Positions 1 through 36,632 of a stretch of 36,632 nt of DNA are shown piece by piece. The stretch's first letter is position 1. Each line of letters begins with the position of its first letter. The position numbers and the translations under genes were made by a program. Below the pieces are notes generated by a model that was given only the letters and a program-made list of their open reading frames with translations, was not told the DNA's origin and searched no databases. Source of the DNA: a virus (taxonomy: Duplodnaviria; Heunggongvirae; Uroviricota; Caudoviricetes); IMG/VR virus record IMGVR_UViG_2541047758_000014, one strand, 5' to 3'.

Positions 1-60
1 GGTATCCGTTCTGCTGAAGTGTCATGGCGTTGATTTTACGGTGACTCTTCGACAGTGAAA

Positions 61-83
61 AGAAAAAAGGCCGCAGAGCGGCC
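61..83 (-). terminator. Rho-independent terminator candidate downstream of the 209..649 gene
   Basis: Hairpin ggccgc-aga-gcggcc at 69..83; on the minus strand it is followed by TTTTTTCT (complement of 61..68). Confidence 0.5.
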
Positions 84-208: not shown

Positions 209-649
209 TTACTTAATAACAGTAACCACAGCCACAAGCACGGCCATCGCAGACAGGACAATACCTGTGAGTAGCCAGGTCTGATTTGCAAATGATTTCT
301 GAAGTTCAGTACGATGCTCAGCCATCTCAACTTTCAGAGACTGGCGTAAATCAGCCATCTCAGACTTCAGGGATTGGCGAGATTCTGCCATCTCAAGCCT
401 CAACCCTTCGCGAATCTCCAGTACATCAGATTTGGTAGCAAAGGATTCGCTTCTTGTGGTGAGAGTAATCAGGTTGTTTTTGATTTCAGTCACATCACTT
501 TCCAGGCAACTGACCCGCCGTTCAAGGTCGTCATTCATGCCATCACCTCCATCATTACCACTTCCTGTTACTTGGTTGTTGGATACATTATAGGCATTCT
601 CTTTCTTTTTTCTGAACCGCGAAATATGTGCAACATTCTCTGCCATCAC
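209..649 (-). CDS. Hypothetical membrane-anchored protein with 11-residue coiled-coil-like repeats and a C-terminal transmembrane helix
   Basis: 146 aa ORF; repeats LRLEMAESRQS / LKSEMADLRQS / LKVEMAEHRTE; hydrophobic C-terminus TWLLTGIVLSAMAVLVAVVTVIK; terminator just downstream. Confidence 0.55.
   Translation of the reverse strand: MMAENVAHISRFRKKKENAYNVSNNQVTGSGNDGGDGMNDDLERRVSCLESDVTEIKNNLITLTTRSESFATKSDVLEIREGLRLEMAESRQSLKSEMADLRQSLKVEMAEHRTELQKSFANQTWLLTGIVLSAMAVLVAVVTVIK
318..416. repeat. Three tandem 33-bp repeats inside the 209..649 gene, encoding the 11-aa protein repeats
   Basis: Units at 318..350, 351..383 and 384..416, e.g. tcagccatctcaactttcagagactggcgtaaa / tcagccatctcagacttcagggattggcgagat. 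Confidence 0.7.
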
Positions 650-1008
650 TTCTCATCACCCTGCTTGCCTACCCAGTTCATAAAGGCCCGGGCCGAGTAA
701 CGATGAACAAACCCACATCTGTTACAGGTAAGTCGGAATTCATAGTTATGGATATTTTCCCGATCATGTCCCTCATATCCCGGATACCCAGTAAATGGAC
801 CGATATAATCAAGCATAACAAGAGTGCCTAAATCACACTCCTCAGCAGTTTTCGGCTCAGGCCCCACCTCAACAATATTCGTCAAATACATGTACATATC
901 CGTATCGCCACACGACAAACATTTTTCATTCGTAGACGACTCATTGAGAAAACGCGCAAAATTATCGAGCGTTGCCATTCTTTTAAGTTCATCTAAATGA
1001 AACTTCAC
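646..1008 (-). CDS. Hypothetical protein with two CxxC pairs (possible zinc ribbon)
   Basis: 120 aa ORF; CLSC and CNRC motifs; stop overlaps the start of the downstream gene, suggesting co-transcription; no family recognised. Confidence 0.5.
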   Translation of the reverse strand: MKFHLDELKRMATLDNFARFLNESSTNEKCLSCGDTDMYMYLTNIVEVGPEPKTAEECDLGTLVMLDYIGPFTGYPGYEGHDRENIHNYEFRLTCNRCGFVHRYSARAFMNWVGKQGDEK

Positions 1009-5594: not shown

Positions 5595-5963
5595 TTAAAC
5601 CCGGCCAGTGAAAATCGCTGGCCGGAGCAGTATCAGGATTTTTTTTAGTATGCCGTTCTCACAAAAAAACCGCTTGCCATGCCGCAATCAGTCAGGTTAC
5701 ATTTCCGCTGCACCTCATAAAACGGGTGCCGGGATTTCCACCCCGCTGACAACCAAAGCGCACAACCGCGCCAGCGGTTTTTTTGTGCGTACCGTATCGC
5801 CACGTCTTTTTCGCACACGAATTATGGTGGGGCGTATGGGGCCGACTTCGGTCGGGCCGGGTTCTTTGGTTGCCGGTTGTGGAAACCCTGTACGTCTCAC
5901 CACCCCGAGTTTTCCACCTCTGGATGGTGAGTTTTCAAAACTTACAACCAAAGAGGCCACACC

Positions 5964-33764: not shown

Positions 33765-33921
33765 AGCTTCAGCCCCTTGTATCCGTTAAATGATTCGGCA
33801 ACAATCATCACCCACCACGCGCGTAATCTCACCCCTGCGCCGTTCTCCCGACCCGGCGACAACAAAAAGCAGTAACCCCCTCCGCACGCACATGCGACCA
33901 TGCCGCACAGGGAGGAAACAG

Positions 33922-35031
33922 ATGACCGACACCACCATGCAATTGCTCAGTCAGGGCACAGACCCCGTGAAAATGCCGGATTTTGATATTCTTGCGGAGG
34001 GTAAAACGCTGTCAGGCGTGGCAGAGCGCCTGATGAGCCTGTCACTGACCGACAACCGGGGATTTGAGGCGGACCAGCTCACCATCACGCTGGATGATGC
34101 GGATGGTCAGTTGCAGCTACCGCCACGGGGCGCGCGCCTGACGGTTCTCATTGGCTGGAAAGGAGAACCGCTGACAGAAAAAGGCACTTACATTGTTGAT
34201 GAAATCGCTCACGAAGGACCGCCGGACAGGCTGACTGTTTCAGCCAGAAGCGCAGATTTTCGGGATGAATTTAACGTTAAACGTGAGGTGTCCTGGCATG
34301 ATGTGACCCTTGAGCGTGTGGTATCCGCCATCGCTCATCGGTATGGTCTGAAACCACAAATCAGCGAAATGCTGATGGATATCGAAATCGACCACGCCGA
34401 CCAGACCGAAGAAAGCGACATGTCCTTCCTTACGCGCATGGCGGAAATGCTGGGCGCAATCACCACGGTAAAAAGCGGTAATCTGTTATTCATCATGCCA
34501 GGCGGTGGCGTGAACGCACAGGGCCAGCCGTTGCCCTCGTTCGCCATCACGCGCAGCAGTGGCGATCGCCATCAGTTCCGCATTGCTGACCGCGAAGCGT
34601 ATACGGGGGTACGCGCTTACTGGCTTGATCTTAATTACGGGAAAAAGAAAAAAGTCAGCGTGAAACGCCGCAAACCGCCAAAACCCAAAAAGGAGAAAAG
34701 CAGCAGCCGTGAAGGTGATTATATGGAAGGCGCAGAAGGCAATGTGTTTGTGTTACGCAAGACTTATCAGAACGAGCAGGCAGCAAGACGCGCAGCGGCG
34801 GCAAAGTGGCAGCAGCTACAACGCGGAGCCGCAGCGTTCTCCATCACACTGGCACGTGGACGCGCAGAACTCTACCCCGAAATGCATGGCACGGTAACAG
34901 GATTTAAAAGCGAAATTGATAATCAGGACTGGATTATTGCAAAAGCCGAGCACACCATTGATAACAGTGGCTTTACCACGCAGCTTGAGCTTGAAGCCAA
35001 AATCCCGGAATGGATAGCAGAAACAGAGTAA
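33922..35031 (+). CDS. D: Tail protein D (late control gene D family)
   Basis: Start at ATG 33922 with RBS gggagga inside track ORF 33790..35031; 369 aa. Confidence 0.85.
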   Translation: MTDTTMQLLSQGTDPVKMPDFDILAEGKTLSGVAERLMSLSLTDNRGFEADQLTITLDDADGQLQLPPRGARLTVLIGWKGEPLTEKGTYIVDEIAHEGPPDRLTVSARSADFRDEFNVKREVSWHDVTLERVVSAIAHRYGLKPQISEMLMDIEIDHADQTEESDMSFLTRMAEMLGAITTVKSGNLLFIMPGGGVNAQGQPLPSFAITRSSGDRHQFRIADREAYTGVRAYWLDLNYGKKKKVSVKRRKPPKPKKEKSSSREGDYMEGAEGNVFVLRKTYQNEQAARRAAAAKWQQLQRGAAAFSITLARGRAELYPEMHGTVTGFKSEIDNQDWIIAKAEHTIDNSGFTTQLELEAKIPEWIAETE

Positions 35032-35225: not shown

Positions 35226-35891
35226 ATGAATATGCAAATTTTTATCGCACCAGCAGCCACAGTTGCTGCAGTCTGCCTTGCTGCATATTTTGCTTTACGA
35301 AATGAACGTAAAAAGAAAGCACTTGAGATTAGAACAACTCAACTAGATCGAATATCAGAGCTAGTAAACCGAGCATCTACCAATTTGATGCAATATACAG
35401 GTACTCTTGCCTCTATACTGGAAGCGCACGCCAAAGATAATTATCTACCGAACAAAAAATTTGACATTAATGTAATTAGCAAATGGAAAGATTGCCTCGA
35501 TGAGAGTGAGGTCTGGGCGATTGATAGACAGCAACTAAGAACATGTCAGCACAGTCTGGAGTTTCATCGTGAAAAAGAATGGGCTGAATGGAAAAAAATA
35601 ATTCCACCATTACTTGATAAAATTGACCAATTTTTTCTCATATCTAAGCCAGGGCAACCTGTTACGTTTATAAATGGCCAAAACAAAACAGCTGATGAAC
35701 TACTTGTTTTCTCAAGATATTTGAGAAAACAAACAGCAGAAATTGAATCAGTACGTCAGCTGTTACTTTCTCAAATGAGAGAGGAATTCATCGAGTTAAC
35801 TAGCTTTGAACCTGTCACAATGTTTAGCTTATTTAAATCAATAAAGAAAAATGTCATGCAATTTTTCTGTATCAGTGCTCTTAAAAATTGA
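35226..35891 (+). CDS. AT-rich moron: N-terminally membrane-anchored protein of unknown function
   Basis: 221 aa; N-terminal TM IFIAPAATVAAVCLAAYFAL; markedly AT-rich; own RBS (aagga) and downstream terminator; inserted between D and ogr. Confidence 0.6.
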   Translation: MNMQIFIAPAATVAAVCLAAYFALRNERKKKALEIRTTQLDRISELVNRASTNLMQYTGTLASILEAHAKDNYLPNKKFDINVISKWKDCLDESEVWAIDRQQLRTCQHSLEFHREKEWAEWKKIIPPLLDKIDQFFLISKPGQPVTFINGQNKTADELLVFSRYLRKQTAEIESVRQLLLSQMREEFIELTSFEPVTMFSLFKSIKKNVMQFFCISALKN

Positions 35892-36040: not shown

Positions 36041-36301
36041 ATGTTCCGTTGTCCGCTTTGTGGCGCATCTGCCCGTATCCGCACCAGTCGTCCGGAAAAT
36101 GATTCAAACACCGTGCGGCAAAAGTATTACCAGTGTAACAACCTGGAATGCGGCGTATGCTTCTCAACACTGGAAGCTTTCCATAAATTCACATCGAAAC
36201 ACGCCTCCGGCATCCACTCTTCAGAAGATATCCCGTGGCATGAGCTGCCAGCTTCACACAGGGGAAACAATCAGATGAGCTTGCCTTTACCTCAGAATTA
36301 A
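36041..36301 (+). CDS. ogr: Ogr-family zinc-finger late transcription activator
   Basis: MFRCPLCGASARIRTSR...YYQCNNLECGVCF matches the P2 Ogr C-x2-C...C-x4-C pattern; RBS aagggagg. Confidence 0.85.
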   Translation: MFRCPLCGASARIRTSRPENDSNTVRQKYYQCNNLECGVCFSTLEAFHKFTSKHASGIHSSEDIPWHELPASHRGNNQMSLPLPQN

Positions 36302-36361
36302 CAGGCAGAATTGCCGGAGTAACAAAAAAGCGATAGATTACGCGCGGGTGCCTTTCGGCTG

Positions 36362-36574
36362 ATGGTCGGAGGGAATACCCGAAGGCCAGATGTGGAAAGG
36401 CCCCGGAAAACATCTCTGTTTAACCGAGGCCCTAACCGCATTACCTTGACAAGTGAAAGGTTAGCGCCTCTCCGGAAAAGGAGCAAGTGCTATGTCGCAA
36501 AAATCGCTTACGGCCATCACGTTCTGCGTGACGGCAATCCTCATCATCTGGATGTTGCACGGTTCGCTGTGTGA
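36362..36574 (+). CDS. mok-like overlapping reading frame of the hok locus
   Basis: 70 aa ORF overlapping the hok frame, as in hok/mok/sok loci; no sequence signature of its own. Confidence 0.35.
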   Translation: MVGGNTRRPDVERPRKTSLFNRGPNRITLTSERLAPLRKRSKCYVAKIAYGHHVLRDGNPHHLDVARFAV

Positions 36575-36632
36575 AATACGGATGAGCTTCTGGGGAGCGG
36601 AGTTTGCGGCGTTCTTACAGTGTAAGCAGTAA
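36492..36632 (+). CDS. hok: Hok/Gef-family type I toxin
   Basis: 46 aa MSQKSLTAITFCVTAILIIWMLHGSLCEIRMSFWGAEFAAFLQCKQ; SLCEIR and AAFL motifs match Hok/HokA; below ORF-track size cutoff; stop is the last codon of the window. Confidence 0.75.
   Translation: MSQKSLTAITFCVTAILIIWMLHGSLCEIRMSFWGAEFAAFLQCKQ

What the first reader, a model, noticed from the sequence alone, without database searches (positions are those of the whole stretch)
36302..36632. hok/mok-like type I toxin locus at the right edge, just past ogr
A 46-aa ORF ending exactly at the window edge has the Hok signature (TM helix then SLCEIR...AAFL), and a longer overlapping frame (36362..36574) is arranged like mok. A sok-like antisense RNA would be expected on the minus strand around 36330..36420 but cannot be defined by eye. 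The locus could be phage cargo stabilising the prophage or a host locus marking the attachment boundary.
Basis: partly seen in the sequence, partly recalled or inferred. Interest (0 to 1): 0.5.

Follow-up and report, generated by a model that had tools for sequence, protein, structure and literature searches.

The report
Prophage-borne hok/sok toxin–antitoxin cassette
The right edge of the window holds an ordinary, already annotated Hok-family toxin gene with its antisense RNA antidote, carried as cargo by a P2-like prophage of E. coli; the proposed third gene, mok, is not conserved.

Summary
The 46-aa ORF at 36492..36632 is a real Hok/Gef-family toxin gene (Pfam PF01848 above its cut-off; PHROG 251 E 1e-22). 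Identical DNA lies beside ogr in over 1,000 complete E. coli genomes, where RefSeq already calls it 'Hok/Gef family protein', and in packaged P88-like phages. The hok-mRNA elements are present and conserved. These are a 5' tac element at 36346, a ucb box, a GAGGC/GCCUC target hairpin and a sequestered hok Shine-Dalgarno. A minus-strand Sok-like gene has its promoter at 36486→36458 and its RNA at about 36451→36393. Its -10 hexamer is identical to the one mutated experimentally in sokW. The locus is cut by the window edge: the fbi element and terminator lie about 60-120 nt further on in an identical chromosome. The 25-bp attR core lies 262 nt past the hok stop, so this is phage cargo, not host DNA. 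The 'mok' frame (36362..36574) exists but is closed, with no start codon, in 10 of 25 leader variants that encode the identical Hok and in all diverged relatives. It is probably fortuitous. The closest studied system, hokW-sokW of Stx phage Sp5, is a different paralogue. Verdict: correct call, known kind, low novelty.

The parts
36311..36339 (+). Candidate hok promoter: -35 TTGCCG (36311-36316), 17-nt spacer, -10 TAGATT (36334-36339), 6 nt before the predicted +1
   Evidence: Read from the sequence. A TAnnnT hexamer lies 6 nt before the GG start in the window, in hokW (TAGAAT) and in the R1-type locus (TATGAT), and TAAATT/TAGAAT/TACATT sit at this spot in relatives. It matches only 8 of 12 consensus positions and was not reported by the promoter scan.
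36346..36491 (+). hok mRNA 5' leader: predicted +1 G at 36346; tac element GGGUGCCUUUCGGCU 36346-36360; ucb box GAAAGGCCCC 36395-36404; SD-like GAGGC 36426-36430; dcb GCCUC 36466-36470; hok Shine-Dalgarno AAGGAG 36478-36483
   Evidence: Rfam RF01794 matches 36346..36505 on the + strand over its full length, 48.4 bits, E 1.2e-9, below the gathering score of 59. The leader stays 75-90% identical where the CDS falls to 65-70%.
36492..36632 (+). hok-family toxin gene, 46 aa (N-terminal membrane helix, then SLCEIR...AAFLQCKQ)
   Evidence: Pfam PF01848 29.9 bits, above its cut-off of 22. PHROG 251 E 1.3e-22. RefSeq WP_000078916.1 'Hok/Gef family protein'. The length is 46 aa in 11 of 12 aligned relatives (one is 45 aa) and dN/dS is 0.17-0.54.
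36458..36486 (-). Sok-like promoter on the minus strand: -35 TTGCTC (36486->36481), 17-nt spacer, -10 TAACCT (36463->36458)
   Evidence: TTGnnn-N17/18-TAxCCT (TAACCT in 12 of 13, TACCCT in one) is present at this place in 13 of 13 window-type loci and as TTGCTC-N17-TAACCT in 25 of 25 IMG/VR leader variants. hokW has TTGCCT-N17-TAACCT and the R1-type locus TTGCGC-N17-TATCCT at the same place. The sokW 'pro-less' mutagenic primer replaces exactly this hexamer. It is a weak consensus match, 6 of 12, and was not called by the scan.
36393..36451 (-). Predicted Sok-like antisense RNA, about 58 nt: a 10-nt single-stranded 5' tail, then a long hairpin (36431->36399), then UUUCC; the ends are inferred
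   Evidence: The fold gives -26 kcal/mol, z -4.0, with the 5' tail unpaired. The position corresponds to Sok in the R1 and hokW loci. No transcript data were available.
36362..36574 (+). mok-like overlapping ORF (70 codons), probably fortuitous and not part of the conserved system
   Evidence: The ORF exists. It has no family hit. The frame is closed with no start codon in Chuche, L018, L019, L020, VT2-Sakai, phi296 and the IncI1 plasmid, and in 20 of 80 IMG/VR loci with identical Hok. Where a start is present it shifts between -130, -103 and -100.
36041..36301 (+). ogr late-gene activator (context: last core gene of the P2-like prophage)
   Evidence: Pfam Ogr_Delta 52.4 bits; RefSeq annotation.
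59..83 (.). attL core AAAGAAAAAAGGCCGCAGAGCGGCC; its direct repeat (attR) starts 262 nt beyond the window end in an identical chromosome, overlapping the ihfA terminator
   Evidence: The 25-nt exact repeat lies at window 59-83 and L001 4995-5019. The prophage sits between btuC and ihfA. Four IMG/VR loci have the core 259-264 nt after the hok stop.

Best explanation
This is a hok/sok-type type I toxin-antitoxin cassette of about 410 nt, carried as a moron between ogr and attR of a P88-like (Xuanwuvirus, P2-like) prophage integrated between btuC and ihfA of E. coli. Shown by sequence: a Hok-family membrane toxin ORF, a structured mRNA leader homologous to the hok leader, and a conserved antisense promoter and hairpin.

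Inferred by analogy with plasmid R1 and supported by folding and covariation: the full-length mRNA (+1 at 36346; it ends at a terminator about 120 nt past the window) is locked shut by 15 bp of tac/fbi 5'-3' pairing, with the hok Shine-Dalgarno held in a conserved local hairpin. Slow 3' trimming removes fbi. tac then pairs with ucb (36395-36404), and GAGGC (36426-36430) pairs with GCCUC (36466-36470), forming the Sok-target hairpin and loosening the anti-SD. The short-lived Sok-like RNA (about 36451->36393, minus strand) binds this form and triggers its decay. If Sok synthesis stops, through loss of the prophage or shut-off of host transcription, Hok is made and depolarises the inner membrane.

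Unlike R1, no mok reading frame is conserved, so Hok is most likely translated directly from its own AAGGAG site.

The biological role is not resolved. It could be prophage addiction, abortive infection against other phages, or help with lysis on induction. I favour a selfish stabilising or exclusion module.
For: Hok family membership:
- Pfam 29.9 bits against a cut-off of 22; PHROG 251 E 1.3e-22; RefSeq name.
- Purifying selection on the Hok frame, dN/dS 0.17-0.54, with the length 46 aa in 11 of 12 relatives.

Leader and mRNA structure:
- Rfam RF01794 matches the + strand over its full length, E 1.2e-9.
- The full-length mRNA folds at -177.8 kcal/mol, z -9.1, with 15-bp 5'-3' closure.
- On 12 homologues 88.3% of cells are paired against 38-43% with slid partners, and 28 pairs show compensatory changes against 3-18.
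- All three natural variants of the fbi core are C->T changes that keep G.U pairing.
- In-silico 3' truncation moves tac from fbi to ucb in 9 of 12 homologues and creates the GAGGC/GCCUC hairpin.

Sok:
- The promoter motif is conserved in 13 of 13 and 25 of 25 loci, and its -10 is identical to the sokW -10 that was mutated experimentally.
- The Sok-like fold has z -4.0.

Cargo status:
- att core repeat.
- The cassette lies inside phage genomes P88 and Chuche.
- The homology block shared with Stx phages and IncI1 plasmids runs from about 20 nt upstream of the mRNA start to the end of the fbi core, and not beyond.

The R1 mechanism is taken from PMC9841398. A relative, hokW-sokW, has been shown to work as a TA system in a prophage (PMC8621323).
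Against: - No transcript, toxicity or stability data exist for this locus or its subfamily.
- The Rfam score is below the family's gathering threshold (48.4 against 59).
- Both promoters are weak matches to the sigma-70 consensus (8 of 12 and 6 of 12), and the consensus scan called none in the region.
- The tested structure was derived from one of the aligned sequences, which inflates the contrast with the slid controls.
- The 3' part of the unit (fbi, terminator) is not in the window and is taken from a chromosome identical over the last 733 bases.
- In the truncated fold the hok start codon is still paired, so direct translation is an inference.
- In R1, stop codons in mok upstream of hok abolish Hok synthesis, so mok-less variants could in principle be silent.
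Confidence: 0.85

Rival explanations
1. A canonical three-gene hok/mok/sok locus as in plasmid R1. The 36362..36574 frame would be mok, its translation would be needed to open the hok ribosome-binding site, and Sok would act by blocking mok translation.
For: The ORF exists, is 70 codons long like R1 mok, and stands in the phase relation to hok (hok one nt downstream) that I recall for R1. It is intact in 49 of 80 IMG/VR loci. [quoted passage not shown]
Against: - The ATG lies 130 nt upstream of hok (about 58 in R1) at mRNA position 17, inside the tac stem, and I see no Shine-Dalgarno before it.
- The SD-like GAGGC that aligns with the R1 mok SD is not followed by a start codon.
- The frame is closed with no ATG/GTG/TTG in 10 of 25 leader variants with identical Hok.
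- It is also closed in all diverged relatives (VT2-Sakai, phi296, STEC639, S. diarizonae) in which Hok still evolves under dN/dS 0.2-0.4.
- Where a start is present its position is not conserved (-130, -103, -100).
- The product matches no family.
- The 9 leader variants with the -130 ATG are all at least 147 of 150 identical to the window, so they form one recent lineage.
Confidence: 0.08
2. A decayed, non-functional hok relic, like the IS-disrupted or mutated chromosomal hok loci of E. coli K-12, carried passively by the prophage.
For: Chromosomal hok loci are often inactive: K-12 hokA is split from sokA by IS150. Degenerate copies of this very subfamily exist, in an E. albertii plasmid with a deletion and in Stx2_EH2011 with a frameshift. 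The promoter matches are weak.
Against: The ORF, both promoters, tac, ucb, dcb, fbi and the hairpins are all intact here. The cassette is present with at least 80% coverage in 1,156 of 5,426 complete E. coli genomes. dN/dS is below 0.55 throughout. Compensatory and wobble-only changes preserve the RNA helices.
Confidence: 0.07
3. A host chromosomal hok locus that marks the outer side of the attachment boundary, so not part of the phage.
For: It is the last feature before the window edge and lies beyond ogr, the last core P2-type gene.
Against: The 25-bp att core repeat lies 262 nt downstream of hok, overlapping the ihfA terminator, with its partner at window 59-83. The cassette is found inside sequenced virion genomes (P88, Chuche, PhiR44_2, Shae_phiSM). 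It also follows ogr in prophages with different downstream flanks, which implies different integration sites.
Confidence: 0.01

Closest known systems
hok/mok/sok (parB) of plasmid R1, the paradigm type I toxin-antitoxin system
   Same: A small Hok-family membrane toxin. An mRNA of about 400 nt with 5' tac / 3' fbi closure. Alternative tac-ucb pairing after 3' trimming. An SD-like GAGG/dcb target hairpin. A short antisense RNA with a single-stranded 5' tail and a hairpin, made from a promoter placed at the same point of the leader (TTGCGC-N17-TATCCT in the R1-type locus against TTGCTC-N17-TAACCT here).
   Different: Only 33% protein identity. The leader is about 27 nt shorter (hok AUG at +147 against +174). 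No conserved mok frame. The element is carried by a phage, not a plasmid. The Rfam score is below the gathering threshold.
hokW-sokW of Stx2 prophage Sp5 / VT2-Sakai (Takada et al. 2021, PMC8621323)
   Same: A prophage-borne hok/sok module that has been shown to be a working TA pair. Its Sok -10 hexamer is the same TAACCT at the same position, and its 5' end is the same GGGUGC.
   Different: It is a different paralogue. HokW is 51 aa (MKQQKAM...) and 28% identical. It lies at VT2-Sakai 57501-57827 and has an in-frame N-terminal extension annotated as MokW. The true Stx-phage counterpart of the window's locus is an unannotated cassette between lom and orf66 (44532-44906, 81% nt identity).
HokA of E. 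coli (NCBIfam NF007290) and the other chromosomal hok loci (hokB-E)
   Same: HokA is the best-scoring named Hok model, sharing the MxQK...W...SLCE...AAFL.CK pattern. The hokA leader also begins GGGTGC and carries a GCACCC fbi-like box.
   Different: The score is 34 bits against an equivalog cut-off of 89, so this is not HokA. Nucleotide similarity to the K-12 hokA locus is low, and that locus is disrupted by IS150.

Membership tests
Hok/Gef toxin family (Pfam PF01848) | Profile match above the curated gathering score | tested here: met
   29.9 bits against a cut-off of 22, E 4.1e-7, covering profile positions 5-42 of 42. Also PHROG 251 E 1.3e-22.
Hok/Gef toxin family (Pfam PF01848) | Peptide of about 45-55 aa with one N-terminal hydrophobic helix and the conserved C-E-x-R motif | tested here: met
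   46 aa. In the alignment with Hok(R1), HokW and five relatives the invariant residues are M1, C12, T14, C27, E28, R30 and A39.
Hok/Gef toxin family (Pfam PF01848) | Kills or arrests cells by damaging the inner membrane when expressed | not testable with these tools
   This needs an induction experiment. It has been shown only for relatives: Hok of R1 and HokW.
hok/sok type I TA locus (R1 parB architecture) | Antisense Sok RNA gene with its own promoter inside the hok leader | tested here: met
   The promoter motif is conserved in 13 of 13 and 25 of 25 loci, and its -10 is identical to the mutated sokW -10. The hairpin plus 5' tail fold has z -4.0. This is sequence-level evidence only; no transcript evidence was available.
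hok/sok type I TA locus (R1 parB architecture) | Long-range tac/fbi pairing that closes the full-length mRNA, with alternative tac/ucb pairing after 3' trimming | tested here: met
   15-bp closure in the MFE structure, z -9.1. Helix 1 is 92% paired across 12 loci. fbi variants change only to G.U. The pairing switches to ucb in 9 of 12 truncated folds. The fbi element lies outside the window.
hok/sok type I TA locus (R1 parB architecture) | Overlapping mok reading frame whose translation is coupled to hok | tested here: not met
   The frame is present in the window but absent in 10 of 25 leader variants with identical Hok and in all diverged relatives. The aligned SD-like GAGGC is not followed by a start codon.
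hok/sok type I TA locus (R1 parB architecture) | Membership of Rfam RF01794 (sok/hok leader model) at the gathering score | tested here: not met
   48.4 bits against a gathering score of 59. The match is nevertheless full-length (1-157 of 157) with E 1.2e-9.
hok/sok type I TA locus (R1 parB architecture) | Unstable Sok, stable hok mRNA, RNase III cleavage of the duplex | not testable with these tools
   This needs rifampicin chase Northerns and an rnc mutant.
HokA (NCBIfam NF007290, equivalog) | Score at or above the equivalog cut-off | tested here: not met
   34 bits against a cut-off of 89.
hokW-sokW of Sp5 | Orthology to the studied HokW locus | tested here: not met
   28% protein identity. 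The studied locus was mapped by its primers to VT2-Sakai 57501-57827, whereas the window's homologue is at 44532-44906.
Cargo (moron) of a P2-like / P88-like prophage | Lies between the att core repeats and is present in packaged genomes of related phages | tested here: met
   att core at window 59-83 and 262 nt past the hok stop. The cassette is present in P88, Chuche and other Xuanwuvirus records at 94-97% identity.

The most novel reading that the evidence does not exclude
This widespread phage-borne Hok subfamily (46 aa; found in P88-like phages, beside lom in Stx phages, and on IncI1 plasmids) may be a mok-independent variant of hok/sok. In that reading the element homologous to the R1 mok Shine-Dalgarno (GAGGC) no longer starts translation. 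It acts only as an RNA switch arm that pairs with GCCUC to release the hok ribosome-binding site, and Sok works by undoing that switch and by RNase III decay rather than by blocking a leader peptide. The most variable stretch of the leader (36432-36457) coincides with the Sok 5' recognition tail. That could define specificity classes which let several hok/sok cassettes coexist in one cell.
Probability: 0.45. Interest if true: 0.3.

Novelty: already known. Interest (0 to 1): 0.15.

Why it matters
It matters little beyond correct annotation. The toxin gene is already named in RefSeq and in phage records. What public annotation lacks is the RNA half of the system: the Sok-like gene, tac/ucb/dcb/fbi, and the true 3' end beyond many provirus boundaries. 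It also lacks three corrections.
- The label 'MokW-like' is a misnomer for a Hok protein.
- Stx phages carry a second, unannotated hok cassette of this type.
- The studied hokW-sokW is a different paralogue.

The lack of a conserved mok frame offers a cheap test of whether leader-peptide coupling is dispensable in part of the hok family. Because about a fifth of complete E. coli genomes carry this ogr-hok arrangement, its effect on prophage retention or phage exclusion would be easy to measure and of modest ecological interest.

Tried and rejected
- The consensus promoter scan of the locus found no sigma-70-type site. The promoter calls therefore rest on positional homology and conservation, not on consensus strength.
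- I first took the 81% match in Stx phages to be hokW-sokW. Mapping the primers of Takada et al. showed that hokW is a different locus, so that equation was dropped.
Three of them are in records labelled Planococcaceae, Vagococcus and Xanthomonas that look like contamination, so the scan was of little use for taxonomic range.
- The R1-type plasmid locus I fetched (L015) differs from the R1 sequence I remember around the mok start, so I did not use it to define the R1 mok frame. R1 positions are taken from PMC9841398 instead.
- MAFFT misaligned the 5' end of the S. diarizonae locus and the fbi of the EDL933 locus in A3. These count as unpaired cells, so that result is conservative.
- PADLOC has no model that hits this Hok.
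- The K-12 hokA locus, rebuilt without IS150, aligns only weakly, so it was rejected as the parent family.
- Literature searches for a study of hok in P2-like phages found none. Neither of the two P2 hotspot papers contains the word 'hok'.
- I did not run structure prediction or the large protein searches, because family membership was already clear.

Full report
**Observation.** The window ends with an ATG ORF at 36492..36632 whose stop codon is the last triplet. Its 46-aa product, MSQKSLTAITFCVTAILIIWMLHGSLCEIRMSFWGAEFAAFLQCKQ, scores 29.9 bits against Pfam HOK_GEF (cut-off 22, E 4e-7) and E 1.3e-22 against PHROG 251. The best NCBIfam model is HokA, but at 34 bits against a cut-off of 89, so it is a Hok-family protein and not HokA. 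The upstream gene 36041..36301 is ogr.

**Where it sits.**
- The last 733 bases of the window are 100% identical to several E. coli chromosomes. 1,757 of 5,426 complete genomes match, 1,156 of them over at least 80% of the ogr-hok query. RefSeq annotates the ORF as 'Hok/Gef family protein', WP_000078916.1.
- In strain TUM9757 the prophage lies between btuC and ihfA.
- A 25-nt exact direct repeat, AAAGAAAAAAGGCCGCAGAGCGGCC, occurs at window 59-83 and 262 nt downstream of the hok stop, overlapping the ihfA terminator. Four IMG/VR loci show the same spacing. Hok is therefore inside the prophage.
- The same cassette lies next to ogr at 94-97% identity in sequenced phages: P88, Chuche, PhiR44_2, Shae_phiSM and Xuanwuvirus P884B11.
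- 47 of 80 related IMG/VR contigs stop exactly at the hok stop codon. The coincidence of the ORF end with the window edge is thus a provirus-trimming artefact.

**The RNA architecture.** Rfam RF01794 ('sok') matches the plus strand at 36346..36505 over its whole length (48.4 bits, E 1.2e-9, gathering score 59). Its consensus begins GGGUGCUUGAG and ends at an AUG. It is in effect a model of the hok mRNA leader in sense orientation; this reading relies on my knowledge of the R1 sequence.

Reading on into the identical chromosome (L001 = window minus 31,899), three elements follow the stop codon:
- a GC-rich hairpin;
- the box AAGGCACCC, which is the exact complement of the 5' GGGUGCCUU at 36346-36354;
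- an intrinsic terminator.

The 407-nt transcript folds at -177.8 kcal/mol (z -9.1) with 15 bp joining its two ends. This is the tac/fbi closure described for R1 (PMC9841398). Supporting comparisons:
- On an alignment of 12 homologues, 88.3% of cells are paired against 38-43% when partners are slid.
- 28 pairs carry compensatory double changes against 3-18 in the slid controls. The caveat is that the structure came from one of the sequences.
- Natural variants of the fbi core (GGCACTC, GGCATCC, GGTACCC) are all C-to-T changes that keep G.U pairs.
- When the 3' end is removed in silico, the 5' tac element re-pairs with GAAAGGCCCC (36395-36404, ucb) in 9 of 12 homologues. GAGGC (36426-36430) then pairs with GCCUC (36466-36470). 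This reproduces the R1 'open' form with its Sok-target hairpin.
- In the full-length fold the hok Shine-Dalgarno (AAGGAG, 36478-36483) sits in a local hairpin that is 95.5% paired, with 6 of its 11 pairs never varying (helix 7).

**Sok.** On the minus strand the motif TTGCTC-N17-TAACCT lies at 36486->36458. A TTGnnn-N17/18-TAxCCT motif is present at this point in all 13 window-type loci I collected (TAACCT in 12, TACCCT in one). TTGCTC-N17-TAACCT is present in all 25 distinct leader variants from IMG/VR. It corresponds to TTGCCT-N17-TAACCT in hokW and TTGCGC-N17-TATCCT in an R1-type plasmid locus.

The mutagenic primer that Takada et al. used to make their sokW 'promoter-less' construct replaces exactly this hexamer: TAGGTTAG becomes CCGGCTCG on the hok strand. 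The window's -10 is therefore identical to an experimentally disabled Sok -10.

Transcription from about 36451 would give an RNA of about 58 nt with a 10-nt free 5' tail and a long hairpin (36431->36399), followed by UUUCC (-26 kcal/mol, z -4.0). That is the Sok design.

Both this promoter (6 of 12) and the hok promoter TTGCCG-N17-TAGATT (36311-36339; 8 of 12) are weak consensus matches, and the scan called neither.

**mok.** By my reading of a remembered R1 sequence, the 36362 frame has the R1 phase relation to hok, but several points count against it.
- It starts 130 nt upstream of hok (about 58 in R1), at mRNA position 17 inside the tac stem, and I see no Shine-Dalgarno before it.
- The GAGGC that aligns with the R1 mok SD is not followed by a start codon.
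- The frame is interrupted, with no ATG/GTG/TTG before the hok ATG, in Chuche (96% identical), two further near-identical loci including a Salmonella one, VT2-Sakai, phi296, STEC639 and an IncI1 plasmid. The S. diarizonae locus keeps only a GTG at -28.
- The 80 IMG/VR loci all encode the identical Hok. 20 of them (10 of 25 leader variants) have no such ORF, 9 have an ATG at -103 instead, and 2 have only GTG/TTG.
- Hok itself evolves under dN/dS 0.17-0.54, including between mok-less lineages such as VT2-Sakai and phi296 (0.27). Hok must therefore be translated without mok.
- The putative Mok product hits nothing.

I conclude that the frame is fortuitous in this lineage. Hok is probably initiated directly once the anti-SD is drawn into the GAGGC/GCCUC hairpin. 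That last step is inference, because the start codon stays paired in the truncated fold.

**Relation to known systems.** The cassette is about 81% identical over 373 nt to a locus in Stx phages (933W, VT2-Sakai and others). That locus lies between lom and orf66 and is unannotated in VT2-Sakai.

The experimentally studied hokW-sokW (PMC8621323) maps by its primers to 57501-57827 of VT2-Sakai. It encodes a 51-aa HokW that is 28% identical to the window's Hok, so it is a paralogue and not the same locus.

The block shared by P88-like phages, Stx phages and IncI1 plasmids runs from about 20 nt upstream of the mRNA start to the end of the fbi core. After that point at least five different 3' flanks occur. 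This marks the cassette as a self-contained mobile module.

The noncoding leader stays 75-90% identical even where the coding region drops to 65-70%, as expected for a region that encodes two overlapping RNAs.

**Function.** The mechanism is inferred from R1. A stable but inert full-length mRNA is slowly trimmed at its 3' end. The trimmed form is either destroyed with Sok or, when Sok is no longer made, translated into a membrane-damaging peptide.

Relatives have been credited with three roles:
- post-segregational killing, in R1;
- partial exclusion of T4 by R1 hok/sok, as cited in PMC8621323;
- faster release of Sp5 after induction, for hokW-sokW.

Nothing here discriminates among them. I favour a stabilising or exclusion role for a cassette that spreads among unrelated mobile elements.

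**Verdict.** The mok component is not supported, the position of sok needed correcting, and the locus is truncated by the window. The element belongs to a long-known family and is already named in public annotation, so novelty and interest are low. The one mildly interesting point is the apparent independence from mok.

Noticed in passing
window 5710-5784 (+) and 5820-5907 (+): Rfam gathering-level hits to isrK (64.3 bits) and C4 antisense RNA (80.5 bits), side by side in the early/immunity region of the prophage. This pair of sRNAs is typical of P1/P7-type immunity control. It was not examined further.
   Followed up: no
window 35226-35891 (+): A 221-aa ORF with a hydrophobic N-terminus is inserted between tail gene D (33790-35031) and ogr. 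It has no significant Pfam hit (best E 0.03) and no PADLOC hit. In phage P88 ogr follows D directly. This is an uncharacterised moron next to the hok cassette.
   Followed up: partly
window 209-649 (-) and 646-1008 (-): Two overlapping ORFs (146 and 120 aa) lie between the attL core and the integrase gene (1011-2138). They have no convincing family hit. This is possibly another cargo slot at the left prophage end.
   Followed up: partly
window 1-83; L001 4951-5040: Window bases 1-58 are host DNA, starting at the base after the btuC CDS (98 of the first 100 bases match strain TUM9757). The 25-bp att core overlaps the ihfA terminator, where Rfam gives a partial, sub-threshold STnc540 hit (33.1 bits against 38). 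The prophage therefore rebuilds the 3' end of ihfA and its sRNA.
   Followed up: partly
L005 / L016 (VT2-Sakai 44532-44906, between lom and orf66): Stx phages (933W, VT2-Sakai and about 180 records) carry a window-type hok cassette that is unannotated in several reference records. It is distinct from the studied hokW-sokW at 57501-57827, so Sp5 has two hok/sok loci.
   Followed up: yes
L023-L102 (IMG/VR loci): 47 of 80 viral contigs end exactly at the hok stop codon, as the window does. Provirus boundary calling seems to cut at the last gene and so drops the fbi element, the terminator and attR.
   Followed up: yes
window 36432-36457 (alignment A3 columns about 93-115): The most variable stretch of the otherwise conserved leader coincides with the predicted 5' recognition tail of Sok and the loop of its target hairpin. 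Leaders are also mosaic: pC-Ec2-KPC has the Stx-type hairpin with the window-type CDS. This may define Sok specificity classes or may simply be neutral.
   Followed up: no
L009 (E. albertii plasmid pEA5_1) and L011 (Stx2_EH2011): These are degenerate copies of the same cassette. One has an internal deletion in hok, the other an 8-nt deletion and frameshift just after the start codon, so decay does occur in some hosts.
   Followed up: partly
L017, L018, L020 (genome contigs): Records titled Planococcaceae MAG, Vagococcus sp. and Xanthomonas pisi contain this enterobacterial cassette at 98%, 98% and 72% protein identity. This is most likely contamination of those assemblies.
   Followed up: no
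PHROG 251 and phage records (for example P88 gp52): The widely propagated product name 'MokW-like host killing' is attached to proteins that are Hok toxins, not Mok. In VT2-Sakai the 70-aa 'MokW' is simply HokW with an in-frame N-terminal extension.
   Followed up: yes
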